From the NCBI GenBank assembly GCA_015233495.1, contig JADFXQ010000001.1, positions 2,790 through 66,789 on the forward strand: a stretch of DNA of 64,000 bases, written 5' to 3'. Positions 9,461 to 54,250 of the stretch are shown here, piece after piece (the stretch's first letter is position 1; each line of letters opens with the position of its first letter). The position numbers and the translations under genes are program-made. Under the pieces are notes generated by a model. That model worked only from the letters and a program-made list of their open reading frames with translations. It did not search any database and was not told the DNA's origin. The DNA is from Candidatus Omnitrophota bacterium. GTDB taxonomy: Bacteria; Omnitrophota; Gorgyraeia; Zapsychrales; Zapsychraceae.

Positions 9461-9484
9461 GTAGGGACGCCCACGAGGGGCGCC
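9461..9484. repeat. truncated copy of the GC-rich palindromic element family (GTAGGGACGCCCACGAGGGGCGCC), 17-40 nt upstream of the ileS start
   Basis: Shares GTAGGG(G/A)CGCCCACGAG and GGGCGCC arms with the copies at 12307, 18147 and 22948. Confidence 0.55.
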
Positions 9485-9505
9485 ATCTTAACTACGACAT
9501 ATCGT

Positions 9506-10366
9506 CTATTTAATATACTTCCCGATAATCGGTTCCAGCTCTCGCAAATGTTGGTTTGTTAATTTATCCTGCGCTGTGATGATCGCGTATTTCATGGCGT
9601 CTTGCGCGCTGAAATTTTCCAATTTACCGATCAACGGAATCGCGGTTTTTAATATTTTTTTGGCATTCGCCACATTCGCGGTCAAATTTTGGATGATCAT
9701 TTCAACAGTAACCGAATCATGGGCCGGGTGCCAACAATCATAATCCGTGACCGCGGCCAAAGTCGCATAGGAAATCTCCGCTTCCCGGGCAAGTTTCGCT
9801 TCGGTCGCGTTGGTCATGCCAATTATGTCCATGCCCCATTGCCGATAAAGATTCGATTCCGCCTTGGTTGAAAATTGCGGACCTTCCATGGTGATATAAG
9901 TTCCGCCTTCGTGCACCGTGGCGCCGCTTTCCCTTCCTGCCTGGGCCACAATATCCGCGACCTCGCGGGAAATCGGATCCGCGAACGAGGCGTGGGCCAC
10001 AATTCCGCCTTCGAAAAACGTTGATTTTCGGCCCTTAGTCCAGTCCACAATCTGATGCGGCACGACAAAATCCATGGGCTTAAGTTCTTCACGCAGACTA
10101 CCGCAAGCGGACACGGAAATGACCGCGTCCACGCCCAATTTTTTCATTCCGAAAATATTCGCGCGATAATTGATCTCGCTCGGCGAAATCCGGTGGCCCC
10201 GGCCGTGGCGCGACAAAAACACGACTTCAATGCCATCGAGCTCTCCGGTGAAAAAACTATCCGAAGGCTGGCCGAACGGCGTGTCCCACATCTGAAGCTC
10301 TTGCAATTGCGCGACCCCGTCAATGCTGTACAACCCGCTGCCGCCAATGATCCCGACTTTTGCCAT
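9506..10366 (-). CDS. mtnP: S-methyl-5'-thioadenosine phosphorylase / purine nucleoside phosphorylase family
   Basis: MAKVGIIGGSGLY N-terminus and PNP-family core; start taken at the internal Met. Confidence 0.75.
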   Translation of the reverse strand: MAKVGIIGGSGLYSIDGVAQLQELQMWDTPFGQPSDSFFTGELDGIEVVFLSRHGRGHRISPSEINYRANIFGMKKLGVDAVISVSACGSLREELKPMDFVVPHQIVDWTKGRKSTFFEGGIVAHASFADPISREVADIVAQAGRESGATVHEGGTYITMEGPQFSTKAESNLYRQWGMDIIGMTNATEAKLAREAEISYATLAAVTDYDCWHPAHDSVTVEMIIQNLTANVANAKKILKTAIPLIGKLENFSAQDAMKYAIITAQDKLTNQHLRELEPIIGKYIK

Positions 10367-10381
10367 GAGATCCCTCCTTTT

Positions 10382-10514
10382 AAGACACAAGACACAAGTT
10401 TCTGTTTGAATGTCTTGTTTGAAAAATAAAATTGAGGCTGATATCACAAGATATTATTTATACGTTAAGGCCGGTGTCTTGTGTCCTGTGTCCTGTGTCA
10501 TGTGTCCTTGTGAC
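10382..10514. repeat. inverted arrays of the heptad GACACA(A/G): 2 copies at 10382-10398 and 5 copies on the other strand at 10474-10514, flanking an AT-rich 75-bp spacer
   Basis: Direct reading of the sequence; the downstream array is translated as the C-terminal tail of the proC ORF. Confidence 0.7.
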
Positions 10515-11299
10515 AATTCACCGGCGCGTGCAGCCGCCGCTTGTAATGCTTCCGTAAAAATCTTCTGCATACCGCGCTGGGCGAACACCTCCAGCGCCGC
10601 TTGAGTTGTTCCGCCTTTGGACGTGACCCGCTCTCTCAACACCGCCGCGTCTTCTCCCGACGATTCAAGAAGCGCCAAACTGCCTTTTAACGTCTGCGTC
10701 ACTAAAACTCGGCTCGCCGCGTCGCTCAACTTTAAATTTTTCGCGGCTGCCAAAAGACATTCGACAAATAAAAATAAATACGCTGGTCCGCTCCCAGACA
10801 CGGCGGTCACCGCGTCCATCATTTTTTCTTCCACAACCACGGTTCGGCCGATTTTGTCAAATAACTGACAGGTCGTTTTCACATCCGCGACGGTCGCATT
10901 GCGCCCCGCGCTGACCGCGGTCATGCCTTGCCCAACTTGCGCCGGCAAATTCGGCATAGTCCGGACAACCCGCTGACCTTTCCCCAACTGTTTTTCGATA
11001 AACGCGGCAGTCACGCCCGCGGCAATCGACACAAATAATTTGCGCTGATTCGCGTAAGGTTTAACCGCGGTCAAAACCTCGGCCATCATCTGCGGCTTTA
11101 CGGCAAGGATAATCCTATCCGACGCCGAAATAACATCCGCCAAATCCCCGGAAGTCACGCCGTATTTTTTCCGTAAAAACTTGATCTTCTCCTGGTCCGG
11201 ATCACATACGCTCACCTGATAAGAAGCATGAATCCCCGCAATGATTGCGGCGCCCATATTCCCGCCGCCAATGATACCGACCCGCAATTTAGTTTTCAT
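10454..11299 (-). CDS. proC: pyrroline-5-carboxylate reductase
   Basis: N-terminal VGIIGGGNMG Rossmann motif; ProC dimerisation domain. The last roughly 15 codons read through the heptad repeats. Confidence 0.8.
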   Translation of the reverse strand: MKTKLRVGIIGGGNMGAAIIAGIHASYQVSVCDPDQEKIKFLRKKYGVTSGDLADVISASDRIILAVKPQMMAEVLTAVKPYANQRKLFVSIAAGVTAAFIEKQLGKGQRVVRTMPNLPAQVGQGMTAVSAGRNATVADVKTTCQLFDKIGRTVVVEEKMMDAVTAVSGSGPAYLFLFVECLLAAAKNLKLSDAASRVLVTQTLKGSLALLESSGEDAAVLRERVTSKGGTTQAALEVFAQRGMQKIFTEALQAAAARAGELSQGHMTQDTGHKTPALTYK

Positions 11300-11984
11300 G
11301 AAACAACGCCCTCCCGACGCGCACCATATTCGCGCCTTCTTCGATCGCGATCAAATGGTCCGCGGACATACCCATAGATAAATATTTCATAGTGACGGAC
11401 GGACGATCCCGAAACTGTGCGGAAATTCGATCCCGCAATTCCCGCAACTGCCGGAAACTCTGCCGCACCGCGTTGACGTTATCGGTCAGCGCGGCCATGG
11501 TCATCAGTCCTTGCACGCGAATATTTTTTAATCCGGATATTTGCCCGATCAAATCCGACGCCGCCGCAGGATCAACCCCCGACTTCTGCTCTTCCGCCGA
11601 CTCATTCACCTGAACCAAAATACCCATCACCTTTCCCAACCGGGCCGCGTGTTTATCGATTTCCTCGGCTAATTTCATACTGTCAACCGATTGGATCATA
11701 TCAAACAGCTCAACCGCGATCTTGGCCTTATTCGTCTGCAAATGCCCGATCATATGCTTCTTGACCCGGGCTACGTCTCCACCCAGGGCGGCGAACTTCT
11801 CTTTGGAGTCTTGAACCCGGTTCTCCCCGATATCCGTCAATCCAGCCGCGATCGCGTCCCGGATCCCAACCGCGTCCGTATATTTAGAAGCCCCGACCAC
11901 AACAATCTCACCCGGATCCCGCCCGATTTTCCGGCAAGTTTCCCCGATCGCTTGCTGAATTTTAAAAAGATTATCCTTAATCAT
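11289..11984 (-). CDS. yggS: YggS-family pyridoxal-phosphate homeostasis protein (alanine-racemase-fold)
   Basis: VVGASKY..IGENRVQD motifs of the YggS/PLPHP family; start at internal Met MIKDNLF. Confidence 0.7.
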   Translation of the reverse strand: MIKDNLFKIQQAIGETCRKIGRDPGEIVVVGASKYTDAVGIRDAIAAGLTDIGENRVQDSKEKFAALGGDVARVKKHMIGHLQTNKAKIAVELFDMIQSVDSMKLAEEIDKHAARLGKVMGILVQVNESAEEQKSGVDPAAASDLIGQISGLKNIRVQGLMTMAALTDNVNAVRQSFRQLRELRDRISAQFRDRPSVTMKYLSMGMSADHLIAIEEGANMVRVGRALFHEN

Positions 11985-12018
11985 CAGGCGCACAAAATAC
12001 CACAAAAACCGAACGGCG

Positions 12019-12243
12019 TCAAACTTCCGTGCGTTCGTCAAAAATCAGAATGGAAATGCGTTTGCCGATCCGAAACGTCGCGTATCCGGAAGCCACAATA
12101 AAAACCCCAACCGGCAAATTGACCGCGTTGCGCGTCACGACATCCAACAGCACAACCGCCAATCCCAAAAACACGGAAGCCGCTCCCGAATAACTACAAA
12201 ACGCGCTCAACCTCTGCAAATGCTGAACATTTTCCGCTTTCAT
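12019..12243 (-). CDS. small two-TM membrane protein, hypothetical
   Basis: 74-aa ORF with two hydrophobic helices; no recognisable family. Confidence 0.3.
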   Translation of the reverse strand: MKAENVQHLQRLSAFCSYSGAASVFLGLAVVLLDVVTRNAVNLPVGVFIVASGYATFRIGKRISILIFDERTEV

Positions 12244-12271
12244 ATGCCTCTCCTCTTCTTAATATGCTCCC

Positions 12272-12353
12272 CTTGTGGGTGCCCGTTGTTCTGGCGCGAT
12301 CGCATAACGGGCGCCCACGAGCCTGCCTGCCGAAGGCAGGGGGCGCCCCTACA
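12272..12353. repeat. GC-rich palindromic element, full intergenic copy with an extra inverted arm; its CTAC end supplies the serpin stop codon
   Basis: AACGGGCGCCCACGAGCCTGCCTGCCGAAGGCAGGGGGCGCCCCTACA, preceded by inverted arm CTTGTGGGTGCCCGTT. Confidence 0.7.
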
Positions 12354-13563
12354 TTGCCGACGGGTCATTGACCCGGCCGATGAATAAGATCAACCCGGTT
12401 TTGCGGTCTTGGATGATAAACAGAAATGGATGATCCGCCTGGAATATCTTGGGCGGTACCGACATATGGGTGACAGTTCCTTTCAGCATCATCACCACCG
12501 TTGCCGCGGCCGCTTCCGTTCCTTCTTCATTCACCTCCACAAACGCCTGATGAATCACCGCGGAAATAAACAAATCTTTTTTGCCGGTCATCCCCGAAAA
12601 ATCCGCGTCAACATCGCTAAATGCCGCTTGCATTCCCAGAGAATTCAAATCCTGCCTCATAAAATATTTAGTCCCGAATTTGAACTTAGGCAAATAAATA
12701 ATGACTTTTTCCTGCTGCAATAATTTTTGCCATTCCGCCACCTTGGCCGCGTTCAAAGACGCTTCCACGGATTCCAGAGTTTTTTTCCCCGGCAAAAGAA
12801 TCAGCATGGACAGATCTTCTCCCTGATAAGGCAACTCAAGAATCTGCAGTCCGTCTGCCTCCGCGTAGGATTTGTTCTCGGACAAATACATGGTCGGGAC
12901 TTTAACTGTTTTTTGATCGCCGGTCCTAAAATTCGCTTTCCGAGTATGCTGGGCGTCAAACGGCGTCCGCCAAGACCCTTTAAAATATACGACATTAGTA
13001 AGAATCAATTTTGTATCCGCGCCGATCATTCCCGACGGGATCAATTCCTCGATTTTATGATTCGTCCGCTCCTCTACCCACAGATTAATCGTCTGCCGCG
13101 ATTCCTCCGACCGAATCCGGAAATCCAAATTCGTCGCCTTCCCGCCGTAATATTTCTCGATCAGACTAAAATATTCTTCCAAAAACGGATAACCCTCCTG
13201 CGCCCACAAGGCATTCGCGGTATTCAGCGTGTATTTTTTGTCTGCCTTATTGATCTCCTGATAAATCGCCAAATACGCCTCCCGCCGGGCCGCCGCGTCC
13301 GAAGGAAAATGAAACACCTTTTCCATCTCCGCCGCCGTCTGCCCCCGGCCGCCTTCATACGTCATGGCCAAAGCCGAAGAAATGCTGTAAGGCGAATAAA
13401 AAATATTCCCCGGTAGGGACTTATACCGCGCATAAAGCTCAAACGCGAACTGATTGTTCGCCGCGACCACAGCGCTGACATCCGCCGCGCCGGCCGGGAT
13501 AGGCGCCAAGAATACTGCAATGAGTAATAAAACAACCAACGGCAAAAAAATCCTTTTTATCAT
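12349..13563 (-). CDS. serpin-family serine protease inhibitor, secreted
   Basis: Signal peptide; FYSPYSISSALAM, NAVYFKGSW and reactive-centre-loop-like GTEAAAATVV..PKIFQADHPFLF motifs. Confidence 0.8.
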   Translation of the reverse strand: MIKRIFLPLVVLLLIAVFLAPIPAGAADVSAVVAANNQFAFELYARYKSLPGNIFYSPYSISSALAMTYEGGRGQTAAEMEKVFHFPSDAAARREAYLAIYQEINKADKKYTLNTANALWAQEGYPFLEEYFSLIEKYYGGKATNLDFRIRSEESRQTINLWVEERTNHKIEELIPSGMIGADTKLILTNVVYFKGSWRTPFDAQHTRKANFRTGDQKTVKVPTMYLSENKSYAEADGLQILELPYQGEDLSMLILLPGKKTLESVEASLNAAKVAEWQKLLQQEKVIIYLPKFKFGTKYFMRQDLNSLGMQAAFSDVDADFSGMTGKKDLFISAVIHQAFVEVNEEGTEAAAATVVMMLKGTVTHMSVPPKIFQADHPFLFIIQDRKTGLILFIGRVNDPSAM

Positions 13564-13790
13564 GATTTGCCCTTTCGTTGAGTTTCTTTCTTTAAATACG
13601 CCGCGCCCTTTTTCGTAAGACGGTATTTCTGCATACGGCTATTTGCTTTTGCCGGGATGGTATATTCAATCCATCCGGCTTTTAAAGCCGGATGCAAATA
13701 ATTATCACGAAACGTCGGCCGATGCCTCAATTCCAGCGCTGTCCGGATCTCTCCGGAAGATAATTCCCTGTTTCTCAATAAGTCGAGCAT
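13560..13790 (-). CDS. winged-helix domain protein (fragment resembling Fic/RecG-associated C-terminal wHTH); likely a gene remnant
   Basis: 76-aa ORF with a KYRLTKKG-type wHTH tail; no upstream continuation. Confidence 0.3.
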   Translation of the reverse strand: MLDLLRNRELSSGEIRTALELRHRPTFRDNYLHPALKAGWIEYTIPAKANSRMQKYRLTKKGAAYLKKETQRKGKS

Positions 13791-13962
13791 CCGACGGACT
13801 GGGTCGGTGGCTCAGGCTGTCGCGCCGGTTTTTTCCGCCAGATTGTTAAAATAAAAACCTTTCAATTAACCTATGAACAGTTGCCATATTGACAGGTTAG
13901 TTCATAGGTTGCAAGCTCGAAGCCGTCAAAAGATTTTCCGCGCTCCTCAAGTTTCGGCAACT

Positions 13963-14030
13963 ACGCCGACGGATCACTGACCCGGCCGATGAATAAAATC
14001 AACCCGGTTTTTCATCTTGAATGATCCTCC
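13963..14030 (-). pseudogene. degraded fragment of a second serpin gene (3' end only)
   Basis: About 85% DNA identity to 12355-12420, the 3' end of the intact serpin gene, with no ORF around it. Confidence 0.5.
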
Positions 14031-14300
14031 GTAATTTGGTCGCTGAATGGGTCGTTTACTGCCTTTCATCTCTGACGGCGCATTCTATGCTCGATTTTAT
14101 ACAACACGTCCAATTTTTCCACAACCGATTTTCTTTGCATGACAATGGTCTTGATGAATCAGACTCCCCTCGTAAAGATACAATTTTTTTATTCATAAGT
14201 CCCCTTTAATTGTATAGGAAAATCTCTTCGATAAAAATCTATTTCCCAACCCAGGCTTGTGTTATACTTCTAATAGAGAATGCTTATTGGAGATCTTATT

Positions 14301-14519
14301 ATGAAACCCATGGAAATCATATTTCTTGTTGAGCAAGACCCGGAAGGCGGCTTCACAGCCAAGGCCCTTGAATATTCCATTTTTACCCAAGGCGAAACGC
14401 TTGAGGAATTAAAAACAAACATCAAAGATGCCCTTCTTTGTCATTTTGATTCTAAAGACGGCATTCCGGCATTGATTCGTTTACATATTGTCCGCGAAGA
14501 AACCCTGATTTATGCCTAA
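14301..14519 (+). CDS. hicB: HicB-family antitoxin (UPF0150 fold)
   Basis: Short HicB-like N-domain (FLVEQDPEGGFTAKALEYSIFTQGETLEELKTNIKDAL); GGAG Shine-Dalgarno; overlaps hicA by 8 nt. Confidence 0.6.
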   Translation: MKPMEIIFLVEQDPEGGFTAKALEYSIFTQGETLEELKTNIKDALLCHFDSKDGIPALIRLHIVREETLIYA

Positions 14520-14757
14520 AATCCCTCGCGATCTATCCGGTCAAGATCTCGTTAAAGCCTTGCGATCATTCGATTACAAAATTGCTCGACAATCGGGGAG
14601 CCACATTCGCTTGGTTTCTCAATATAAAGGCAACGAACACGCCATCACGATCCCGGATCATTCCTCCATCAAAATCGGAACACTCAACAATATTCTCAAT
14701 GACATCGCTGTATATTTATGCATAAGCAAAGACTCTCTCATCGAAAAATTATTTTAA
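14512..14757 (+). CDS. hicA: HicA-family mRNA interferase toxin
   Basis: GSHIRL...HAITIPDH..IKIGTLNNIL matches the HicA (YcfA-like) pattern. Confidence 0.65.
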   Translation: MPKIPRDLSGQDLVKALRSFDYKIARQSGSHIRLVSQYKGNEHAITIPDHSSIKIGTLNNILNDIAVYLCISKDSLIEKLF

Positions 14758-14758
14758 C

Positions 14759-15415
14759 TCATTCACCGACCTTCCCTGCATAAGTCTTTTCAAACTCCCG
14801 AACAACTCCCTCTCGGGACAGGACAATCTCACGAATTATTTTTTCCTGTTGTTCCGATAAATCCCGTTTGCCGTCCTTGATAAACCCTTCGGCAATGATC
14901 TCTAGGTCAATTTCTATGTAATTTTTGTGATTGCGTAACAATTCGAACGCCTCTTCGTATTCTTTCTTTTTAACCAAATCCCGCATCTTGGCCCAATGAT
15001 CTTGAATCTCCTGCGGAGGATAATAGGAATTCCCGTCGAAATAACCACGAAGTACATCAGTATAGGCGTTTACCCATCGCTGTCTCTGAAAATTTGAAAC
15101 CTCTTTATACAATTTGGCGCTATCTTCCAAGGCATATACACTCCACGCAGGCACAATATGATTATCCTTATATCCCCTATACGCCATAGTAACAGCGATC
15201 CATACGATACAATCACTAAGTCTTGTCACTGCGTCTCTATTCTCTTCTTGATTAAACGCCAGAATCTCTTTCATCGGCCAATACAAATTCTGAGGAGGAT
15301 TTCGAAGGGGCAATCTGCCGGCTCGTGCAATTTGCATATTATACTTAATCATGTGAAACCCCAAACCGATAAGCACAATCAAAAACAACCAGTGTAATAA
15401 TTGCTTATTTTTCAT
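14759..15415 (-). CDS. membrane-anchored hypothetical protein, paralog of the next gene
   Basis: N-terminal TM helix; shares RWVNAY and IAEGFIKDGK..EQQEKIIREIV blocks with 15412-16341. Confidence 0.55.
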   Translation of the reverse strand: MKNKQLLHWLFLIVLIGLGFHMIKYNMQIARAGRLPLRNPPQNLYWPMKEILAFNQEENRDAVTRLSDCIVWIAVTMAYRGYKDNHIVPAWSVYALEDSAKLYKEVSNFQRQRWVNAYTDVLRGYFDGNSYYPPQEIQDHWAKMRDLVKKKEYEEAFELLRNHKNYIEIDLEIIAEGFIKDGKRDLSEQQEKIIREIVLSREGVVREFEKTYAGKVGE

Positions 15416-16341
15416 CGATTGATAACTCCTTCCTTACGCGCTACAAAGCGTTCAATCTGCGATTCCTGTTGTTTCGTTAAAGCCGCGACTTTCTGTTGAA
15501 TGAGCCCTTCCGCAATGATTTTCAAACCGTCGCGTATAGAATAATAATCTTCCATATCCAATACGGCAAATGCCGACTGATAATCTTTGTGAGCAACAAA
15601 TGCCCTGATCATATCCTCCAAAGCGCGCCACAAATCACTTTTATTGTTGTCCTGATACAACTTGATCGCCTCCGAGGCTTTTCCGGATTCAGAATACGTT
15701 TTTATAATGACCGTTAATGTGTCTCGGCGTTCATCGGAATAAATCTGCGGCGTCAGACTGCTCAATGACATTTGAATAAATCGTTCCCCCTCGAGAACAT
15801 TGCCCGATTTAAAAAAATATTCTCCCATTTTTGCCAACGCATAGGGTTGATTTTGGCATTTGGCAATCGCCATAGTTAAATCTTTTTTTAAAATCCAATT
15901 TTCAATCACCTGCCAATTTCTCACATATTCACTCGGGAAACCTTCTGGGCCCCCCGGCAAACGCCCGCACGCACGGGCGCGAAATATATTCAATTCATTT
16001 AAAAATTTATTAAGGGAGGATTTTTTCTGAAGCTGCGCTTTAAAAGCATTGACCCAGCGCATCCTTTTCTCATAACCGCCTTTCGCATATAATCCTGAAA
16101 CTTCATTGAGCTGATAAATATCACCGTCTAAATCAACGCCCCTCAAACATAAAGAATGCCCTGTGACTGCATATAACAAAACGCAATCCAAAACTTTTGT
16201 GGCTTGGTCACGGTTTACTTCGAAATTAAAATCCCATATTGTGTTAATGCGTTCCTTTAACAGCCTGCCATAAAGGCCATTGCCCGCAACAACAACGCTA
16301 ATGGCAACCAAACAAAAAATAAAAAAATAAATTTTTTTCAT
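15412..16341 (-). CDS. membrane-anchored hypothetical protein with a TPR-like middle region, tandem paralog
   Basis: Start set at the internal Met with a GGAGGAG Shine-Dalgarno; the longer ORF would overlap the addB stop by 56 nt. Confidence 0.55.
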   Translation of the reverse strand: MKKIYFFIFCLVAISVVVAGNGLYGRLLKERINTIWDFNFEVNRDQATKVLDCVLLYAVTGHSLCLRGVDLDGDIYQLNEVSGLYAKGGYEKRMRWVNAFKAQLQKKSSLNKFLNELNIFRARACGRLPGGPEGFPSEYVRNWQVIENWILKKDLTMAIAKCQNQPYALAKMGEYFFKSGNVLEGERFIQMSLSSLTPQIYSDERRDTLTVIIKTYSESGKASEAIKLYQDNNKSDLWRALEDMIRAFVAHKDYQSAFAVLDMEDYYSIRDGLKIIAEGLIQQKVAALTKQQESQIERFVARKEGVINR

Positions 16342-16357
16342 AACTCCTCCGATCGCA

Positions 16358-19249
16358 TTATCGTTGATCTTCCACAAACGGCACATCGGGGTTACAGATT
16401 TCCTGCCAGACACTGTCTAATCCAGCCAAGCAGGCCGCTTGCATGGCTTGCTGTTCTTCCGGAGTGCTGCCATTTTTGAATCTTTCCAACTTCATGGTCT
16501 TGAGGCTATAGAGCCCGCCCTGGACTCGAGCTTCCGGATAAATTTTTTTCATGCAGTATGTATATAAAGGAAGCTGGAAGGATTTGACGCGGTCGCGGAT
16601 ATTTTCGCGGGTCATTTCCATGCCGGCAATGCGCTGTACTCCTTGCGGGACTTTGTCCGTGCTCCCGGTTTTGTAATCAATGACTAAAATACTGCCGTCA
16701 TTGAGCCGGTCAACCCGGTCAACCACATAACGGAATTTCATCTCGCCGGACGGCAACACAATGCGGTCTTCAAAATGCTTTTCCAAACCGAGGATTTCCT
16801 TCACCTCGCCGTTAACGCGGCCGGCTTCGGATTCATAAAATTGTTCCAGCCGGTGTTCCAGAACCGGACGCATGAGAAACCCGTCAGACAAATTGTTTTT
16901 TCCGAACCGCGCCGTGAATTTCTGCTCAAAGATCGAAAACAACCGCTTATGAAACCCGGCATTGATTTCCGGCTGGCGTCCGATCAACGGCCCAAACGTC
17001 TCCTCCAACACCGCGTGCAATAAAATCCCGATGTCGCGGCCCTCCGGCTCGTCCAACAAATCGTCCCGTTCCCGCAAACCCAAAACATAATTGAGATAAA
17101 AATCCATCGGGTTATCCAAATACATATTCAAAGCGGACACGGAATACGGCATATCCCGCAAAAAATCAACCATGGCCGGAGTCTTGGCGATTTGCCGCGT
17201 CCCTGCCGTGACCTTGACGGCAAAAGACGCGTGCCGCGCTTTTACGCATTCAATCTCCCCGGCCTTGCGCTCCTGTTCCCAGATCAGCTCCTCGACAAAC
17301 CGGCTGCGCTCTTTCTCTTTATTTTCCTCATAAATAAGATGCACCGCCCGCGCCGGCCCGATCAGCCGCATGAATTGATACCGCTGGATTTCTTCGTCGA
17401 GCTCAAGCCGGTCGAGCCCCAAGCTGATCATCACTTCGCGCGGAATCAGCGGCTGATGCACTTGCAAACGCGGCAGTTTGCCTTCATTCACATCCAAAAT
17501 GATAACCTGATCAAAATTCAACGAGCGGGTCTCCAGCAAACCCAAAATCTGCAAGCCCTTAAGCGGCGACCCGGAAAACGAGACCATTTCCCGGCTGATG
17601 TTCTCAGTAAAAATTCGGAAAATATCTTCCGGCAAAAAACGCTCCTTGCCGAATCCGGACTCCCGCATATCCTGCGCCATGTCCAACAACCGCGAAGCAA
17701 TATTCACATTAAAAGGAAACGAGACCAAAGCGCTTTTCTCCGCCACCAGACGGGACAAATTCTCCAAAGCGTCCGCGAAAGAACAAAAATCCCCGATCTG
17801 CTCCCACGCCCGGAAAAATATCTGATGCATCCGCTTGAGCGCCTGACCCAAAGCTTCCCGCGACACTGTCGGGTCCACGGCCCCGGCCGCCTCCCGGCTG
17901 ATCGACAAGACATCCTCGTCCTGCTCAATCTCGTCGAGATTCAAAAACAATTTGCCGGACAGACCCGTGACCGTATCGCCCGACAAAATTTCCTCGATCT
18001 TATGGACTAAAATCCGGGTCACCGCCGGATCTTTAAACCAGCAAATATTTTTCACCAAAGGATGGCGCAAGACCCGCAAATAATCCCGGGCATAATACCC
18101 CTCCGACCAAATTGCATCAGCGGTGTTACTAAATGATTGTTTGTCGTAGGGGCGCCCAAGCTGCCGGCAGGCAGGCGAGAGGGCGCCCATACGTTCGCCC
18201 GTTATCCTATCTGACCGAGACAATTGGCACCGAAAAATATCATCCAGCAGAACACACAAACTGCTGCGGTTTAACGGATATCCCAATGATACATTGCAAT
18301 CCTCTACCCAGGGCCGCAGGTCCGCCAGCAAAGGCACAACCGCGTCGGAATCCGGCAAGACAATCACGGTTTGATCGCGCCGGTCAATGGTCTTGAGAAT
18401 TTCTCCGGCCTGCGCCGCTTGGCTGTGGCGGCTCGTGACAGAATACAATTGAAGTTGAAAATGCAGAGGAACCGGCTGATCGCCTTCGCGCAAAGCGCAT
18501 CCCAACCGCCGGCTGATCCGCTCCAAAACCGGCCATTTGCGCTCATCGCCTTGAAAGATCAAAACCGCCTTGCCCCGGTCGAGGAGATTTTTGACAATCG
18601 CTTCTTCCGTGCGGTGAAAATAAAAAAAGTTGCAAAACAAAATGGCGTCAAATTCCTCCAAAGCCGCGGAGCCGACTTTTTGGGCTGCTTCGCGATAACG
18701 GAATCCCCGGGCCGTCATACCCGACGATCGCAATGCCTCATGATAGGCCAGCCGCAATTTAGACAAATACGTTAACAGCTGATTGATGCCCTGCGGCACG
18801 TCATAACCGATGCGCGCGTTCGCCTCGACTGCCGAAAGACGGCGGTTGTCAATATCCTCCAAATCCAATTGCTCAATAAACGCCAAAATCTCCCGCGCCC
18901 ACGGCAAAAAATCCGCAAAGGTTTTTCGTTTCTCCAAAATCTCCGGCGCGACAGTCAGGGCCAACTGATAAATCAAATAACACTGATCCAAATCGCCCGC
19001 GCCCGGCCGGGCGGCGTCTTGGGCAAGCCGGTCAACCAACTCATCAATCGTGAACATGACCGGCGGGAAAAACCCCTGCCCGATCCGCTTAGCCAAAGCC
19101 CGGCTCAAAAACAAACGCGGCCGCTTCCCGCCAAACACCACAGCCACCCGCCGCAAATCCTTGCCCGGCTGAATAAAATTAACATCCAAATATTCAGCCA
19201 GCCGGTCGATAAACGGCTCTGCGAAATTAAAAGTGATTATTTTTTGCAT
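16358..19249 (-). CDS. AddB/RexB-like helicase-nuclease subunit (PD-(D/E)XK nuclease, no Walker A)
   Basis: 963 aa; C-terminal ILVIDYKTGS nuclease motif; lies in tandem with the AddA-like gene. Confidence 0.65.
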   Translation of the reverse strand: MQKIITFNFAEPFIDRLAEYLDVNFIQPGKDLRRVAVVFGGKRPRLFLSRALAKRIGQGFFPPVMFTIDELVDRLAQDAARPGAGDLDQCYLIYQLALTVAPEILEKRKTFADFLPWAREILAFIEQLDLEDIDNRRLSAVEANARIGYDVPQGINQLLTYLSKLRLAYHEALRSSGMTARGFRYREAAQKVGSAALEEFDAILFCNFFYFHRTEEAIVKNLLDRGKAVLIFQGDERKWPVLERISRRLGCALREGDQPVPLHFQLQLYSVTSRHSQAAQAGEILKTIDRRDQTVIVLPDSDAVVPLLADLRPWVEDCNVSLGYPLNRSSLCVLLDDIFRCQLSRSDRITGERMGALSPACRQLGRPYDKQSFSNTADAIWSEGYYARDYLRVLRHPLVKNICWFKDPAVTRILVHKIEEILSGDTVTGLSGKLFLNLDEIEQDEDVLSISREAAGAVDPTVSREALGQALKRMHQIFFRAWEQIGDFCSFADALENLSRLVAEKSALVSFPFNVNIASRLLDMAQDMRESGFGKERFLPEDIFRIFTENISREMVSFSGSPLKGLQILGLLETRSLNFDQVIILDVNEGKLPRLQVHQPLIPREVMISLGLDRLELDEEIQRYQFMRLIGPARAVHLIYEENKEKERSRFVEELIWEQERKAGEIECVKARHASFAVKVTAGTRQIAKTPAMVDFLRDMPYSVSALNMYLDNPMDFYLNYVLGLRERDDLLDEPEGRDIGILLHAVLEETFGPLIGRQPEINAGFHKRLFSIFEQKFTARFGKNNLSDGFLMRPVLEHRLEQFYESEAGRVNGEVKEILGLEKHFEDRIVLPSGEMKFRYVVDRVDRLNDGSILVIDYKTGSTDKVPQGVQRIAGMEMTRENIRDRVKSFQLPLYTYCMKKIYPEARVQGGLYSLKTMKLERFKNGSTPEEQQAMQAACLAGLDSVWQEICNPDVPFVEDQR
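18144..18208. repeat. GC-rich palindromic element inserted in-frame in the addB-like gene (encodes ITGERMGALSPACRQLGRPYD)
   Basis: GTAGGGGCGCCCAAGCTGCCGGCAGGCAGGCGAGAGGGCGCCCATACG is the inverted orientation of the intergenic copy at 12307. Confidence 0.7.
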
Positions 19250-19291
19250 TTAAAATCCGCCGGAAATTATTTGTTTTATTATATAATTTAA

Positions 19292-36589: not shown

Positions 36590-36592
36590 GTT

Positions 36593-45063: not shown

Positions 45064-45234
45064 ATGAATTCCAAAACAACCCAAGCGCTCAAACATTTGC
45101 ATAAAGCGCGGGAACTGGCGAAAAACTTAGATAATCCGTTCAAAGGTCTCACCAAAGAAGGAATCATTAACCAATTACGCGCTTCCCGGGAAAAACTCTG
45201 GTTGGAAAAGTATGCGGTTAGTTCTCGACACTAA
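45064..45234 (+). CDS. putative antitoxin (VapB-like)
   Basis: Small basic/helical protein with a TAGGAG Shine-Dalgarno, overlapping the downstream PIN gene. Confidence 0.45.
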   Translation: MNSKTTQALKHLHKARELAKNLDNPFKGLTKEGIINQLRASREKLWLEKYAVSSRH

Positions 45235-51600: not shown

Positions 51601-54250
51601 GTGTCAGGATATCCGGATTCGTTAAAATGCCCTGAACTGCGCGATTGACCGCAAACTGAAAATTCCCTTCTAACCTCGCTTCTTCCGGAAGCTTGACCTC
51701 GTCCCGAGCTTCCGGCACATCCAAAAATCCCGCCAAATCCACCAATAGGCCTCCCTCCGCCACCGCCTGCGGCAATACCCGGTCCGGGATTTGCACAGCT
51801 TTAATCACTTCATACCTGCGGCCGAATGAAACCTCTCTTTTGGAAGACAAGGGGTCAAAAACGACACTGATCCGCTTGGCTTCTTGGTCCCGTTTTGCCC
51901 CGTCCAATTCATCCGCTTGTTTTGAACCCTTCACAAACATCCGTGACAAAACACCCGCGTCCATGCCTTTTCCATTATCCACAATCACAATTTCCCCGTC
52001 GTGAGACCAGATATGCACCCGCCGGGTTGCCGCGTCCGCCGCCCTTTGGGCCTTTCCGGTGTGGGGAACAAGCACAACCTTGCGGTCAAAATCGTTCAAT
52101 TTTTCGCCCTGCACATAAATCGTGACATCCGGCACATAAGCAAACCGGTTGGCCAACTCGGTGATCATTGTGTTTTGAAACGCCGCGTCCGCGTCTTTTT
52201 TTCCCGGCGCCCAATCCTGACTTTTAACGCGCACCACTGTGCCCTGAGTGATTTCATTTTCTCCCAGCGCCGCCTGTTGAAACACAGACCGGTCAATGGC
52301 TTTAATCTGAATATAATTTTGCCCGGACCGGCTTTTTAAAATCGTGAGTTGATAATAATCTCCGTCCCGGGCGCGCGTCAGCACTTCAATGCGGTCCTGT
52401 CCGCTGGGGCCCAACCATTCCAAGATCTGCTTCACGCCTTTTCCAAATTGTCCGATATCGCACCCCAAGGCATCCAAACTGTTGGACACCGCTTCAAAAA
52501 TAGCTTGGGTTTTAGGTTTTTGGCTTTGTTTATCCGTGAGTTTTTTCAGATAAGGATTTTTGTAAGTGTCTTGATTTATGCTGTCAATGATCGCTTTATT
52601 GTATTTGCCGCCGGATAATTCTTTTAAAAGGTCTTGGATGGCTGCGGCAAACGCTTGTTCCCGTCTCGCTTTATTCATAGCATCCAAGTCATAAGCTTGC
52701 GGAGCCAAACCCGCCAAAGTCAATACCTGCTTAAGGTGATCCGCTTGCATACCCAAACTCAATTGTTGCTGAGCGTGAAAAAAATGCTCTAAATCAATAC
52801 CAGAAAAACCCAATTCCGGGTCTTCATAAGCAAAGGCTTCCGAACTGATTTGGACTTCAGCCGGTTTCGGTCCGGAGAACGACTCTTCATCTTTATTGAC
52901 GTTTATTGTTTTTCGGAATAACGACTTTAGTTTATCGAGCCAGCTCGCTGCCGGGGATGAAGACGACTTCATCTCCGTTACCTCCGAGGATACGGCCGAA
53001 ACCGCCGGGATCTGTTCTGCGTCCAGCCCGCCCCTGATTCCAATCGGAATGACGGACGGAGAAATCGGCAAAACATTGGCCGGGTTCGGAATATAAACCG
53101 CGGAAGAAACTGTCAAATCAAACCCGCCGCTCACATAGGTCCGCACGGTTTGGCCGTCGGGAGTGTCAACTGATTTTTCGCTGTTATATTCGCCGTTTTG
53201 AAAAGATTTTTTGTAGGCTGAGAAATAAGTGTCTTTGGACCAGGTTGTCTTAGATTCAAGACCCGTGAGGTTTTGTTGATCGATCAGGTTGGGATAAGTT
53301 CCGGATTGGTTTTTATATCTTTTTTTGAACCATTGCGCCAAGATCAGCGAGTAATAAACTTGCCGAAATTGCGCATACCGTTTGGCTGTGTTGACTTCCT
53401 TGGTCAGCCGCGGAATTATGAGTTCGCGAATCTGCTGGGACGCGTATTCATTGATGGCTTTTAATTTTGGGTCAGTAAAATTGTAGTCCGGGTCGTTTTT
53501 GAGATGGTCCTGCTGTAGCATGACTTTGAGCGTGGCTTTGTAAATGTAGGCGCCCCCCTCCCCTCCCCATGCTTCGCGGGGGAGGGGTTTTGCATACTGC
53601 TTTTCTTTTCGGATTCGTTCGCTCTCTATCTTTTCCTTTCTATTTTCACTAATGATAATTTCCCCCGGCACGATCCACGGCCGGGTCATAGTCGGGATAG
53701 CGATTTCCTGATTGCCGTAGATTTCACCGGCTTTTTTATAGACCCGGGTCCAATATTCCCGGCCTTCCGGGGTTTCCTGGGACACGTATTTGGCCATGTC
53801 CTTCTTCAACTGCAAATCCGCGGCCAGCAAAATCCGCCCGATATCCGTGCGCGCTAATTGCGGGTCAATGCTATGATCTTTGTCTTCCGGCCGCAGGTTC
53901 ACCCAGAACATACTGTTCGGCAAAGTCAGGCCGATAAAAAAATAATTCAGCAGGTCTTTGGCAGTGGATTCGATTTCCGGCGACTTGACATTTTTCTGAT
54001 CGCCTTTATCCAACAGCAAATCAAACTTATTAAGGGGAATGTTGTAAGCTAAATACCGAAAATGCAAAGGCCGAAACTTGTCCGCGACCAGCATATTCCC
54101 CAACCCGGACATCGCGCCGGCCACATCCAAAGACACTGCCAACTGCGCCAATCCGGTCTGCTGGACCAGAAGCAGAAAACTAAGCAGCCAAACTAATATT
54201 TTTGACCGAAAGCAGATCCAGGATCTGCTCAAGGTAAAATTAGTCCTCAT
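45689..54250 (-). CDS. giant secreted multidomain protein (2853 aa) with GHKL-ATPase-like motifs and a C-terminal HExxH zincin-like motif
   Basis: Signal peptide; N-domain paralogous to 40942-43536; EAVSNSLDA...DNGKGMD and DAGAKT..DDGPG..GFFGKGKYT Bergerat-fold motifs; IIHELAHLLEE. Confidence 0.8.
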   Translation of the reverse strand: MRTNFTLSRSWICFRSKILVWLLSFLLLVQQTGLAQLAVSLDVAGAMSGLGNMLVADKFRPLHFRYLAYNIPLNKFDLLLDKGDQKNVKSPEIESTAKDLLNYFFIGLTLPNSMFWVNLRPEDKDHSIDPQLARTDIGRILLAADLQLKKDMAKYVSQETPEGREYWTRVYKKAGEIYGNQEIAIPTMTRPWIVPGEIIISENRKEKIESERIRKEKQYAKPLPREAWGGEGGAYIYKATLKVMLQQDHLKNDPDYNFTDPKLKAINEYASQQIRELIIPRLTKEVNTAKRYAQFRQVYYSLILAQWFKKRYKNQSGTYPNLIDQQNLTGLESKTTWSKDTYFSAYKKSFQNGEYNSEKSVDTPDGQTVRTYVSGGFDLTVSSAVYIPNPANVLPISPSVIPIGIRGGLDAEQIPAVSAVSSEVTEMKSSSSPAASWLDKLKSLFRKTINVNKDEESFSGPKPAEVQISSEAFAYEDPELGFSGIDLEHFFHAQQQLSLGMQADHLKQVLTLAGLAPQAYDLDAMNKARREQAFAAAIQDLLKELSGGKYNKAIIDSINQDTYKNPYLKKLTDKQSQKPKTQAIFEAVSNSLDALGCDIGQFGKGVKQILEWLGPSGQDRIEVLTRARDGDYYQLTILKSRSGQNYIQIKAIDRSVFQQAALGENEITQGTVVRVKSQDWAPGKKDADAAFQNTMITELANRFAYVPDVTIYVQGEKLNDFDRKVVLVPHTGKAQRAADAATRRVHIWSHDGEIVIVDNGKGMDAGVLSRMFVKGSKQADELDGAKRDQEAKRISVVFDPLSSKREVSFGRRYEVIKAVQIPDRVLPQAVAEGGLLVDLAGFLDVPEARDEVKLPEEARLEGNFQFAVNRAVQGILTNPDILTPDKIRYINMLVCGLDGLIGENGKHANVIDQIKMEIKKALKPWLKEYQAQGYLLLPYYTDFRKVQIPKGKEDKVIWLHEDLFDSTATFIASQLGGQVIPDKLLKGELSVVVLPFTAESLAAVNGKAVSSEQVDRDLALVRAKDFVAVPSGKGRNSFGQRLFELAKKSTGLNAQERKELAHMWEQINKMTGEALVTGYEMRPGFAEANVIDAPTAAPAKPAWPAVSNAGSIGAAAEQRFREDLSRPPATAFVPGPSQTVVAPFAEGSQAAPADSIFLFSKPSDAPAEDHIEIGIARFIRMEDNYFMRIFSRKVDIYNPAGELLWTVHDCYMVSHTDRFLIVEYVDQAGGKEIIDIRNLPTTRSARKRAWDIQLSASGRFSVQRFKNEIKYCDHDAALPQLTGFTSFREISEYVVHDKADVVIAKQRNNTYGLFSLESGKPLIWNAEHIEIDASGMIAIYKIGNKLGLINLKSGEPVTTRMPDFKEKIFISNDAGFVYVVFEGRDKNEMLTFLRNKNTLVLRQLYNEQSIPEFPSGQASPEFWQGYDISGSNIYQIADRFGLFMIMGTRIHYSSNPPTKQDRTTVELFGNVAVWRNIGNVQGDTLFRNLKSEVEEEQFDCGITTEILPLKGGKSWWVDRKDDSMLVVWDEGTQKFHSVNLSSLSITITKSREFILQGRLAIFDAQGNVREIPQGVPDAFAYVHVNGEYFVFTNASTGQSIYLDPRRTRVRTSALAPPTAIYEEIIRAFYANLSERIRAVSEVPIELPAAAPVEPERREDALWQEKIMSQGEAWIAQARAAYLGFAALVPEECADYQDEINGRIEAGIDRLFAKQTAEIRRRFAAAAQGQELDLTGLPFELFERRMARIMSGLPGYLETVAERLPNVHKTRRAFYTQLFGSLFQMALDEDAATDLSLEAVLALGGGWQMDTVEQVRALEAVIQLIRALTTFTGINTSGLLDAVAFLARFAGNDPVHHIPIMTKQISRILTAEEQSKVNFLKKLCSSFQTVGIRLLLAYADDPLAGHDMGYARPVVAFLTQEIDELPHRGQPVLPNGEDVLLADGTGHYPQGIDLSRLNDLERRRPKNGQPVIAMDDLIAAIQDPAVSLPETDPQSEKDVLFDVKVQGEADAAAREGPANAQDAGAKTLVIDHYLQDNNGEEEYVEAFQDDGPGAAYAAALLIKVSTKEADEQEHSAGFFGKGKYTFLAGVDRVEIITCRQGTGYMFVIQVSKDAFGNPLHVKLTRIRKISDPNVQDGVLIRRIKKAKDTIPEFDAMLSERAYKIFSGLSSTADGPRTSGGFGIYFRRGIDGETHNELLTVDHQVLSETDFKAILAGGKPITRQEFETQLPRPRRWWAGWAPRSWEWSRFAGIMVERGWAYRVGDNEITLREGWDQAEQAIRRTLEKEFPQAWDFLIASQTHTFDGKFKIISARDMPSQVVDKFGRRVCELDEAQYFALVPPALRKHIQQLGLIVQVPLPLTGNRDKFAHFDEHYKSIVQRYVAIEFYKALALRTMMPATAEQGQFTFEGFPVEWEREPREHYSLAIDQHDRAISALANKINAGQFSLISSEELESLPAQYGEKDLVVPNFVKLILMLNVPNPDRPGKTISLFGRRMKLQIEREKQRPSFLGKASKALQRAAEQAGYILEAVPQAEDIADFDEMVSKSIDVTTGIEQISHPEKFMINTSAYTDREKELRDLALSGARHFGIEQVVLLSDLPDESLRFAGAFGYYGPKGQEKPTMFLNRALAGQIGVAGPGVICQATDVIIHELAHLLEESVRTNLDVREQLRRGFVSTDSKSGFTHQPVGPFAQMMKWVACNWFVLEGEDSGIDPARADAAGSPVTTQLGATRRQSSPAPAESAENPGGVDLRELSPFEKGTNSLYGWRKMAAKLPADFNSRDEWAAIQAMLAEGGIPAIRRIANYVAASYQNGRLKKERPAVLGCIADILRLEEDEQSPTDPEMREMLVMLHSE
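53546..53594. repeat. related palindromic element (GTAGGCGCCCCCCTCCCCTCCCC-N9-GGGGGAGGGG) inserted in-frame in the giant gene (encodes PLPREAWGGEGGAY)
   Basis: Direct reading of the sequence; the paralog at 40942-43536 lacks this segment. Confidence 0.6.

What the first reader, a model, noticed from the sequence alone, without database searches (positions are those of the whole stretch)
9461..53594. Family of GC-rich palindromic repeat elements scattered through the window (five or more copies)
Copies at 9461-9484, 12272-12353, 18144-18208, 22948-22994 and 53546-53594 share the architecture GGGCGCCC(AC) - CCTGCCTGCCG - loop - GGCAGG - GGGCGCCCCTAC. Each has self-complementary arms able to form a long GC-rich hairpin. 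The copies occur in both orientations and in intergenic, stop-codon-overlapping and intragenic contexts. That distribution is the behaviour of a miniature mobile or recombinogenic palindromic element (REP/BIME/RPE-like), not of a regulatory motif. It could mark a lineage-specific repeat family that has not been catalogued.
Basis: seen in the sequence. Interest (0 to 1): 0.75.

Follow-up and report, generated by a model that had tools for sequence, protein, structure and literature searches.

The report
REP-like palindromic repeats, some intragenic
A small family of about 49-base GC-rich hairpin repeats, of the well-known bacterial REP type, lies within 14 kb of an uncultured Omnitrophota genome, and two copies sit in-frame inside the DNA-repair genes addA and addB; the repeats are real but of an ordinary kind.

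Summary
Three copies (12304-12352, 18146-18193, 22946-22993) share one 48-49-nt design: GT(A/G)G, GGGCGCCC, an inner CCTGCC/GGCAGG hairpin, a 9-nt bulge, GGGCGCCC, then a short tail (GTYAT in A and C). A fourth copy (9461-9489) is a short form without the inner hairpin. The fifth (53546-53594) is a different palindrome.

The form and contexts match GTAG-tagged REP elements as already described:
- one copy supplies the TAG stop codon of a serpin gene;
- one lies in the PNP-ileS spacer;
- two are in-frame insertions in AddB (116 of 120 homologs have a 4-aa loop there; the window has 39 aa) and in AddA.

Mobilisation by a RAYT transposase is inferred, not shown. The window has no RAYT gene, and the rest of the genome could not be reached. 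The exact composite motif is absent from the three public collections scanned.

One lead remains open. The inner hairpin matches a 20-nt palindrome (CCTGCCTGCCGGCAGGCAGG). This palindrome occurs in-frame three times in one gene of a distant Omnitrophota and at 42 sites in IMG/VR contigs, once exactly within a tRNA variable loop.

Verdict: a new member of a known kind, of moderate interest.

The parts
12304..12352 (-). Copy A, long form. Sequence: GTAG GGGCGCCC CCTGCC-TTC-GGCAGG CAGGCTCGT GGGCGCCC GTTAT. The TAG of its GTAG head is the stop codon of the serpin gene (12349..13563, -).
   Evidence: -33.6 kcal/mol; 74.3 bits
12274..12289 (+). Degenerate extra arm plus tail (GTG GGGTGCCC GTTGT), inverted relative to the arm and tail of copy A. 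It may be the remnant of a partner REP.
   Evidence: (I2); read directly from the sequence; weak
18146..18193 (+). Copy B, long form, in antisense orientation inside the AddB-like gene (16358..19249, -) and in frame. It has a head at both ends (GTAG on +, GTAT on -). Its inner hairpin is shortened to CTGCCGGCAG.
   Evidence: 61 bits on +, 22.7 bits on -
18098..18214 (-). The 39-aa loop of AddB (residues 346-384, SDRITGERMGALSPACRQLGRPYDKQSFSNTADAIWSEG) that contains copy B. This loop is 4 aa long in 116 of 120 homologs.
   Evidence: in the AF2 model residues 347-381 are the longest stretch with pLDDT<50
22946..22993 (-). Copy C, long form with a GTGG head, in sense orientation inside the AddA/UvrD-like gene (22620..25808, -) and in frame. 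It encodes RGGAPCHGRQDSGRP.
   Evidence: about +13 aa against three homologs; 70.9 bits
9461..9489 (+). Copy D, short form: GTAG GGACGCCC ACGAG GGGCGCC ATCTT. It lies in the 61-nt spacer between the PNP-family gene (stop codon at 9506-9508) and the true ileS start (ATG at 9444).
   Evidence: -12.4 kcal/mol; 17.2 bits, E about 0.06; homologs place the ileS start at M15
53546..53594 (+). Not a family member. This is a different GC-rich palindrome (CCCCTCCCC-N9-GGGGAGGGG) lying inside a 33-aa in-frame loop (53552-53650) of the 2853-aa gene. Its adjacent GTAGGC is the native Ala-Tyr codon pair.
   Evidence: the loop is 6 aa in 74 of 82 homologs

Best explanation
The four elements are GTAG-tagged REP-type repeats (repetitive extragenic palindromes) of an uncultured Omnitrophota bacterium.

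Anatomy. Each has an unpaired GT(A/G)G head followed by an 8-bp self-complementary stem (GGGCGCCC). The short form (D) closes with a 5-nt loop. In the long form (A, B, C) the loop is replaced by a second, nested hairpin (CCTGCC...GGCAGG) and a 9-nt one-sided bulge. This gives a bulged stem like that of the E. coli group-2 REPs.

Inferred mechanism. The single-stranded hairpin plus GTAG is recognised and cut by a RAYT/TnpA-REP enzyme (a HUH Y1 enzyme related to IS200/IS605 transposases) encoded elsewhere in the genome. That enzyme copies the element to new sites without target duplications.

Fate of the copies. Where a copy lands decides what happens to it:
- After a gene (A), or between genes of an operon (D), it is transcribed as a stable stem-loop without a U-tail. 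It may buffer mRNA decay or translation.
- Inside essential genes, only in-frame, stop-free copies in tolerant surface loops survive (B in AddB, C in AddA). There they are translated as 15-16 extra residues.

Shown here: the repeat, its structure, the GTAG head, the contexts, and the insertion status relative to homologs. Inferred: the enzyme, the mobility, and any RNA-level effect.
For: Repeat and structure:
- Three units align end to end at 71-88% identity. The covariance model finds the short form as the next best hit.
- Folding energies are -31 to -33.6 kcal/mol. The elements are 73-75% GC in a 49% GC window.

REP hallmarks. GTAG is present in A, B and D, and GTGG in C. [quoted passage not shown] A GTGG variant is known in Opitutus terrae of the PVC superphylum (PMC3733652). 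Published REP sequences have the same form as D, for example GTAGGGTGGGCTTCAGCCCACC (PMC2817692).

Contexts match those published (PMC3733652):
- The REP's TAG serves as a stop codon, as in copy A.
- A REP appears to lie in an ORF N-terminus but is really upstream, as in copy D.
- Intragenic REPs occur in UvrD/RecBCD-type repair genes, as in copies B and C.

Insertion status:
- The AddB loop is 4 aa in 116 of 120 homologs and 39 aa in the window.
- AddA is about 13 aa longer than three homologs at this point.
- The AF2 model has low confidence across exactly the AddB insert.

Conservation is at the DNA level, not the protein level: the copies lie in opposite orientations and different frames. 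None has a U-tail, and none is called terminator-like. No Rfam family matches. GTAG-GGGCGCCC-N5-GGGCGCCC hairpins occur elsewhere, including in 40% GC viral contigs where chance matches are negligible.
Against: - No Y1/RAYT gene is present. None was found among the window's ORFs of 150 aa or more or in the gap ORFs read by eye. A HUH...Y-x3-NP motif scan of the window and all fetched loci was also negative.
- Genome-wide copy number is unknown, and REPs normally number above 100. The exact composite motif was not found in GTDB representatives, JGI metagenome contigs or IMG/VR.
- All copies lie within 13.5 kb.
- No inverted doublets (BIME/REPIN) are present.
- Two of the four copies are intragenic, which is atypical for REPs although it has precedent.
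- The related elements in another Omnitrophota (L090) share the inner hairpin but have no GTAG.
- In IMG/VR, GTAG is only modestly enriched next to GGGCGCCC-N5-GGGCGCCC, and the sample was biased.
- The stems are invariant, so there is no covariation support.
Confidence: 0.6

Rival explanations
1. A RAYT-independent palindromic insertion element. On this reading the propagating unit is the nested CCTGCCTGCC/GGCAGGCAGG palindrome with whatever arms it has acquired. It spreads by an unknown mechanism, such as hairpin-mediated template switching or an unidentified enzyme. The GTAG is incidental or is a target preference.
For: - The same core, with different arms and no GTAG, occurs three times in frame in one gene of a distant Omnitrophota (L090).
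- The exact 20-mer occurs at 42 sites in IMG/VR with unrelated flanks, against 0 for two control palindromes.
- It is inserted exactly, without duplication, in the variable loop of a tRNA-Met.
- No RAYT was found anywhere in the sequence held.
- At the two sites where it can be judged, the GTAG looks native. In the REP-less serpin remnant it reads gcGTAGttg. At site E it is the GCC TAC Ala-Tyr codon pair.
Against: - All four window copies keep GT(A/G)G at the same end of the unit, including the short form that lacks the core.
- The window copies match the core over only 15-16 nt.
- GTAG plus a GC-rich stem is the published signature of RAYT substrates.
- RAYT genes are single-copy, so absence from 64 kb says little.
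Confidence: 0.22
2. A local, low-copy duplication or gene-conversion product confined to this plastic 14-kb region, not a genome-wide dispersed family.
For: - All four copies lie within 13.5 kb, P about 0.03.
- The region carries other signs of rearrangement: an island with 36-nt direct repeats, a duplicated serpin 3' end, and toxin-antitoxin cassettes.
- The exact motif is absent from every collection scanned.
Against: - The copies sit in four unrelated contexts with no shared flanks, which duplication or conversion of a segment would not give.
- Two are precise in-frame additions inside conserved genes.
- The source genome appears to be missing or withheld from the collections, so its absence there is uninformative.
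Confidence: 0.08
3. Functional RNA hairpins (terminator, attenuator or mRNA stabiliser) selected independently at each site.
For: - A lies directly after a stop codon, and D lies 16 nt upstream of the ileS start.
- A relative has a different hairpin in the same PNP-ileS spacer (L088 11810-11861).
Against: - Loop and bulge sequences that have no pairing role are conserved between copies.
- Two copies lie inside coding regions in opposite orientations.
- There is no U-tail, no covariation and no Rfam match.
Confidence: 0.05
4. A conventional MITE: a deletion derivative of a DDE-transposase IS, mobilised through its terminal inverted repeats.
For: The GGGCGCCC arms are inverted repeats. MITEs such as Correia elements and RPE-like elements can sit in frame in genes.
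Against: - At 29-49 nt the elements are far shorter than known MITEs.
- No target-site duplications flank any copy.
- The ends are asymmetric: GTAG at one end and GTYAT at the other.
- The window has no IS with matching ends.
Confidence: 0.03

Closest known systems
GTAG-tagged REP superfamily (Di Nocera et al. 2013, PMC3733652; Nunvar et al. 2010, PMC2817692)
   Same: - An unpaired GTAG (or GTGG) at one end, followed by a GC-rich stem of 6-13 bp.
- Short-loop and complex-loop variants coexist within one family.
- The TAG of the tag is used as a stop codon.
- Copies occur just upstream of real start codons.
- In-frame copies occur in UvrD/RecBCD-class repair genes and next to tRNA-synthetase genes.
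- The superfamily is present in the PVC superphylum.
   Different: - The GGGCGCCC stem and the CCTGCC/GGCAGG inner hairpin were not found in that paper's text or held supplements.
- Copy number here is unknown.
- No dimers are seen.
- I found no REP description for Omnitrophota.
E. coli REP/BIME with TnpA-REP, group 2 (Corneloup et al. 2021, PMC8266576; Messing et al. 2012, PMC3479197)
   Same: A long REP (up to 50 nt) whose stem is interrupted by an irregular zone or bulge and is preceded by GTAG. It is a single-strand hairpin substrate with no target duplication.
   Different: - There is no sequence similarity.
- The bulge here is one-sided, 9 nt long, and lies next to a nested hairpin.
- No BIME arrangement is seen.
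- The cognate enzyme was not observed.
Rickettsia palindromic elements (RPE; RPE-4 and RPE-6 are classed as CGTC REPs in PMC3733652)
   Same: Palindromic repeats inserted in frame into conserved protein genes and translated as extra surface peptides. Repair and translation genes are among the hosts.
   Different: - RPE-1 is longer. From my own knowledge it is about 100-150 bp; PMC3733652 says only 'longer palindromic insertions'.
- The RPEs classed as REPs carry the CGTC tag, not GTAG.
- They belong to a different lineage and have no sequence similarity.
REPINs (Bertels and Rainey 2011, cited in PMC3733652)
   Same: A REP-derived mobile unit thought to be moved by a single-copy RAYT.
   Different: A REPIN is an inverted doublet of REPs. 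The window holds singletons only; the sole hint of a partner is a degenerate arm at 12274-12289.
Palindromic element of a distant Omnitrophota
   Same: It shares the inner palindrome CCTGCCTGCC/GGCAGGCAGG and has the same layout of arm, one-sided spacer, core and arm. It lies in frame in a conserved gene, at the very loop where the window carries palindrome E.
   Different: Its outer arms are GGGACTGTC rather than GGGCGCCC. It has no GTAG. Three copies sit in one gene, all in the same orientation.

Membership tests
GTAG-tagged REP | Short (20-50 nt) palindromic unit able to form a stem-loop | tested here: met
   Units are 29-49 nt with an 8-bp outer stem. Long forms fold at -31 to -33.6 kcal/mol and the short form at -12.4.
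GTAG-tagged REP | Conserved unpaired tetranucleotide GTAG (variants GTGG, GTRG) at one end of the palindrome | tested here: met
   GTAG is present in A, B and D, and GTGG in C, always directly 5' of the first arm.
GTAG-tagged REP | High copy number dispersed over the genome (usually >100) | not testable with these tools
   Only 64 kb of the genome is available, with 4 copies all within 13.5 kb. The source contig is not retrievable. The composite motif is absent from the three scanned collections.
GTAG-tagged REP | Mostly extragenic, close to the 3' ends of genes | tested here: inconclusive
   Copy A is at a stop codon and D is intergenic. B and C are intragenic, which is a documented minority behaviour (PMC3733652). 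Four copies are too few to judge.
GTAG-tagged REP | A cognate RAYT/TnpA-REP gene (PF01797-type HUH Y1 enzyme) in the genome, typically flanked by REPs | not testable with these tools
   None is present in the window. Because the gene is single-copy, the whole genome is needed.
GTAG-tagged REP | No target-site duplication | tested here: met
   No direct repeats flank A, B, C or D. The caveat is that the arms are self-complementary, so they are both direct and inverted repeats.
BIME / REPIN | Two REPs in inverted orientation separated by a short linker, repeated as a unit | tested here: not met
   All copies are singletons. The only hint of a partner is a degenerate arm 14 nt from copy A.
Rickettsia palindromic elements (RPE) | In-frame insertion into conserved protein-coding genes, translated | tested here: met
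   B and C are in frame and free of stop codons, and lie at loops that are short in homologs. Translation itself was not tested.
Rickettsia palindromic elements (RPE) | RPE consensus sequence or length class (CGTC tag, or the longer RPE-1) | tested here: not met
   The tag is GTAG, not CGTC, and the length is 29-49 nt.
MITE (DDE-type) | Terminal inverted repeats plus target-site duplication, with ends matching a parent IS | tested here: not met
   There are no duplications, the ends are asymmetric, and the window has no IS.
Intrinsic terminator | GC-rich hairpin followed by a U-run | tested here: not met
   None of the four copies is among the 18 terminator-like sites in 9000-24000.

The most novel reading that the evidence does not exclude
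The inner hairpin may not be just part of a REP loop. It may be a separate, extremely small (about 20 nt) palindromic insertion module, CCTGCCTGCCGGCAGGCAGG, shared between Omnitrophota chromosomes and many uncultivated viral genomes. On this reading it can land precisely in REP loops, in tRNA variable loops, in intergenic repeats and in frame in protein loops. The window's long-form elements would then be a nested composite that went on to spread.
Probability: 0.25. Interest if true: 0.65.

Novelty: new member of a known kind. Interest (0 to 1): 0.4.

Why it matters
If confirmed genome-wide, this would extend GTAG-type REPs to Omnitrophota, a candidate phylum known almost only from metagenomes. 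It would also add a clean example of REPs tolerated in frame in AddA and AddB, an association with DNA-repair genes that was noted in 2013 and never explained.

There is a practical lesson for annotation. Three conserved proteins in this window carry palindromic DNA as 13-35 extra residues, which should not be read as protein features. ORF callers also extend ileS by 14 codons across one copy.

The more open question is the 20-nt palindrome shared with viral contigs, a tRNA and a distant relative. If it is a discrete mobile module, it would be among the smallest known.

Tried and rejected
- **Locating the source genome.** Exact look-ups of two window proteins found nothing on record. The identical AddB is known only as MBF0531482.1, on a 187-kb contig. 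Copy number and RAYT presence therefore could not be tested.
- **Public scans with GGGCGCCC-N5-CCTGCCTGCCG.** These gave 32 single hits in genomes, 52 in metagenomes and 0 in viral contigs. None has the second half of the element, and most lie in high-GC DNA, so I take them as chance.
- **Close relatives.** The next AddB homolog is only 49% identical, so no empty-site comparison at the DNA level was possible. Four syntenic relatives (L085-L088, 72 kb) contain no copy and only one GTAG-hairpin candidate.
- **Generic GTAG-plus-hairpin scan of the window.** It was not enriched (9 hits against 16.6 expected). Only this specific family stands out.
- **Peptide search.** I searched the 5.8-billion-protein collection with a pseudo-protein built from six-frame translations of A, B and C, hoping to catch other intragenic copies. 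Nothing scored, not even the known positive control P0001, so the test is uninformative.
- **Shared flanks between A and B (inverted repeat I2).** The B side is conserved AddB coding sequence (IFRCQLSR), so most of that similarity is chance. The extra non-palindromic parts of the AddB and giant-gene inserts are not repeated anywhere in the window.
- **RAYT near related hairpins.** A motif scan of all loci was negative. Ten ORFs of the six-copy viral contig gave only a weak phage adaptor hit.
- **GenBank phages and PLSDB plasmids.** There was no match in phages and only chance-level partial matches in plasmids for the L090 element and core.
- **Literature.** I found no paper with the 20-mer and none on REPs in Omnitrophota.
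- **Rejected readings.** These were a protein motif, an intrinsic terminator, a CRISPR array (no array is present) and an assembly artefact. Against an artefact: the copies have diverged, and the same sites recur in independent samples, L091/L120 and L095/L117.

Full report
**What is in the sequence**

At three of the five reported places the + strand carries the same unit. In GTAG-first orientation the copies read:
- A (12352 to 12304, - strand): GTAG GGGCGCCC CCTGCCTTCGGCAGG CAGGCTCGT GGGCGCCC GTTAT
- B (18146-18193, + strand): GTAG GGGCGCCC AAGCTGCCGGCAGGCAGGCGAGA GGGCGCCC ATACG
- C (22993 to 22946, - strand): GTGG GGGCGCCC CCTGCCACGGCAGG CAGGATAGT GGGCGCCC GTCAT

Pairwise identity is 43/49, 36/49 and 35/49. 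The 11-mer CCTGCCTGCCG occurs exactly three times in 64 kb, each time between two GGGCGCCC octamers. Each copy folds into an 8-bp outer stem, a nested 6-7-bp stem and a one-sided bulge. Energies are -31 to -33.6 kcal/mol, z = -2.1 to -3.6. The stems never vary, so there is no covariation evidence either way.

The 9461 element (GTAG GGACGCCC ACGAG GGGCGCC) has the head, both arms and a 5-nt loop, but no inner hairpin. A covariance model built from A, B and C and run without filters over both strands ranks it as the best independent hit (17.2 bits, E about 0.06). It finds nothing else.

The 53546 element is not found by the model. It shares only GTAGGCGCC, and its hairpin is CCCCTCCCC/GGGGAGGGG.

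The family in this window is therefore three long copies and one short copy, all within 13.5 kb. For four random sites the chance of so narrow a span is P about 0.03.

**Organism and gene context**

The AddB-like protein is identical to MBF0531482.1 of a Candidatus Omnitrophica MAG, on a 187-kb contig. The next homolog is only 49% identical.

Almost all genes lie on the - strand. The backbone addA-addB-yggS-proC-PNP-ileS-dksA-lspA is syntenic with distant Omnitrophota (L086, L088).

- **Copy A.** It directly follows the serpin gene, and the TAG of its GTAG head is the stop codon (...GRVNDPSAM*).
- **Copy D.** It seems to lie in the first 14 codons of ileS. However, homologs start at MDYQKT, which aligns with KYQDT in the window. 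The real start is therefore the ATG at 9444, and D sits in the 61-nt PNP-ileS spacer.
- **Copy B.** It lies inside AddB and is read in the tail-first direction (GALSPACRQLGRP).
- **Copy C.** It lies inside AddA and is read head-first (GGAPCHGRQDSGRP).

B and C are in different orientations and frames and give different peptides. What is conserved is therefore DNA, not protein.

**The intragenic copies are insertions**

In an alignment of 120 Omnitrophota AddB proteins, the segment between the conserved QLSR and YYxxDY is 4 residues long in 116 of them. It is 39 residues long in the window. In the AlphaFold2 model, residues 347-381 are the longest stretch with pLDDT below 50, between two confident helices. 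AddA is about 13 residues longer than three homologs at copy C.

The 53546 palindrome is not a family member, but it is also an insertion. The loop between RPWIVPGEII and AYIYKATLKV is 6 residues long in 74 of 82 homologs and 33 in the window.

**What kind of element this is**

The GT(A/G)G head directly 5' of a GC-rich palindrome is the published signature of REPs. [quoted passage not shown] Published REP sequences such as GTAGGGTGGGCTTCAGCCCACC have the same form as copy D (PMC2817692).

Di Nocera et al. (PMC3733652) describe every feature that looked odd here:
- families in which simple and complex self-complementary loops coexist;
- GTGG variants in Opitutus terrae (PVC superphylum);
- REP termini that provide the TAG stop codon;
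- REPs apparently at ORF N-termini that are really upstream;
- intragenic REPs concentrated in DNA synthesis and repair genes, including UvrD/REP helicases and RecBCD, and also found in tRNA synthetase genes.

None of the four copies has a U-tail or is called terminator-like. No Rfam family matches. There are no target-site duplications.

I therefore file the family, by form and behaviour, as GTAG-type REPs. Di Nocera et al. list no GGGCGCCC-stem family in the text or the held supplements, and I found no report for Omnitrophota.

**What is not shown**

The REP model implies a RAYT/TnpA-REP enzyme. None is encoded in the window:
- Pfam scans of all ORFs of 150 aa or more found none.
- ORFs in the gaps between genes showed none by inspection.
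- A HUH...YxxxNP motif scan was negative.

RAYT genes are single-copy, so this says little. The rest of the genome could not be reached.

The exact composite motif gave only single, half-element, mostly high-GC chance hits in GTDB representatives and JGI metagenome contigs, and none in IMG/VR. The window itself was not recovered in those scans. A peptide-level search for other intragenic copies failed its own positive control.

**A wider context found on the way**

One homolog of the giant protein (P0195, locus L090, from a 43% GC Omnitrophota contig) has an insert at the same loop as the window's palindrome E. Its DNA reads GGGACTGTC TCCCGAAGG CCTGCCTGCCGGCAGGCAGG GGACTGTCCC. Three such copies lie in frame in that one gene.

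The central 20-nt perfect palindrome matches the inner hairpin of A, B and C over 15-16 nt. The layout is also the same: arm, one-sided spacer, core, arm. The L090 elements have no GTAG.

The exact 20-mer occurs at 42 sites in 35 IMG/VR stretches, in contigs of 38-68% GC and with unrelated flanks. Two control palindromes of the same design gave no hits. Several features of these sites stand out:
- Independent samples share the same sites (L091/L120, L095/L117).
- One 29.5-kb phage-like contig has six copies, two of them preceded by GTAG.
- In L115 the 20 nt sit exactly in the variable loop of a tRNA-Met. With the palindrome, the tRNA folds as a cloverleaf with an extra arm. Without it, it is a normal 72-nt tRNA.

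Separately, the short-form hairpin GTAGGGGCGCCC-N5-GGGCGCCC occurs 13 times in IMG/VR, including in 40% GC contigs where chance matches are negligible. One example has the loop CTCGT, as in copy A's bulge. In a biased sample, GTAG is only modestly enriched next to this hairpin overall.

Both modules of the window's long form therefore exist independently elsewhere, and the long form looks like a nested composite. Whether the 20-mer is a REP of another specificity or a distinct micro-element is unresolved.

**Two weaker observations bearing on mechanism**

- A frameshifted remnant of the serpin 3' end (13965-14011) has no REP and ends ...DPSA-TAG as gcGTAGttg. At site E the GTAG is the native Ala-Tyr codon pair. 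In both testable cases the tetranucleotide may therefore have been present before the hairpin arrived. This could be coincidence or a target preference.
- The AddB loop of another relative (L088) carries an unrelated 44-nt palindrome. The same protein loops are thus hit repeatedly by palindromic DNA in different lineages, through tolerance or through targeting.

**Verdict**

My best explanation is a GTAG-type REP family, presumably moved by a RAYT encoded elsewhere (confidence about 0.6). The main rival is a RAYT-independent palindromic insertion module (about 0.2).

It is a new member of a known kind. Interest is moderate and comes mainly from the in-frame AddA/AddB copies and the widely shared 20-nt core.

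Noticed in passing
window 19558-22645: A 3-kb island lies between addA and addB, which are adjacent in relatives. It carries AbiEii (19607-20731), DUF6577 (20697-21470) and RhuM (21659-22444). It is bounded by a 36-nt direct repeat (19558-19593 and 22610-22645, 94% identical) that includes the last six addA codons and its terminator. The window has no integrase. A tRNA-Val with the unusual anticodon AAC (19335-19409) lies beside it.
   Followed up: partly
window 12356-12402 and 13965-14011: The 3' end of the serpin gene is duplicated 1.6 kb upstream (94% identical). The duplicate is a frameshifted remnant ending DPSA-TAG, with no REP after it. The serpin, an HTH gene and a HicAB-like pair (14280-14757) are extra relative to the addB-yggS synteny of relatives.
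   Followed up: partly
window 44802-44962 and 54159-54319: A 161-nt repeat (85% identical) covers the upstream region and first ~30 codons of the 2853-aa gene. It is duplicated just beyond that gene's 3' end, next to a PIN/VapC-like pair (about 44929-45616).
   Followed up: no
window 53552-53650: The 2853-aa protein carries a 33-aa loop where 74 of 82 homologs have 6 aa. The extra DNA contains a strong palindrome (CCCCTCCCC-N9-GGGGAGGGG) that is unique in the window. On the antisense strand it is followed by TTTT, so it looks like a terminator.
   Followed up: yes
L090 341-392, 737-788, 1037-1088: A distant Omnitrophota contig has three in-frame copies, in one gene, of a ~50-nt palindromic element built around CCTGCCTGCCGGCAGGCAGG. 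They encode GLSPEGLPAGRQG. One copy sits at the same protein loop as the window's 53552-53650 insert.
   Followed up: partly
L091-L125 (IMG/VR), e.g. L115 2239-2330, L111 2648/9001/10422/10690, L099 8396: The exact 20-nt palindrome CCTGCCTGCCGGCAGGCAGG occurs at 42 sites in viral contigs of 38-68% GC, against 0 for two control palindromes.
- One site is a precise 20-nt insertion in a tRNA-Met variable loop.
- Some sites are flanked by 7-14-nt direct repeats.
- Some lie among heptamer tandem repeats.
- One contig has six copies.
No paper contains the sequence.
   Followed up: partly
L088 7496-7539: Another Omnitrophota relative carries an unrelated 44-nt palindrome (GCGAAAGTCCGTCCAATCCG / CGGATTGGACGAGATCTCGC) in exactly the AddB loop that holds copy B in the window. 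Two further homologs (P0045, P0115) have shorter inserts there.
   Followed up: partly
L131, L139, L140, L148, L157-L160, L167, L169, L172 (IMG/VR): A conserved phage locus has the hairpin GTAGGGGCGCCCC-loop-GGGGCGCCC. Among related contigs the loop appears in both orientations (CACAGTGCGTG and CGCGCACTGTG), a flip/flop polymorphism. This parallels the inverted 5-nt loop of copy D (ACGAG) against copy A (CTCGT).
   Followed up: no
window 36015-36905 and 36046-36262 / 37943-38171: A DUF4160/DUF2442-like small gene pair lies in a gap between genes. Separately, three adjacent repeat segments (75-81% identical, 1.9 kb apart) suggest that the 3' end of the SpoU methylase gene and its downstream region have been duplicated.
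   Followed up: no
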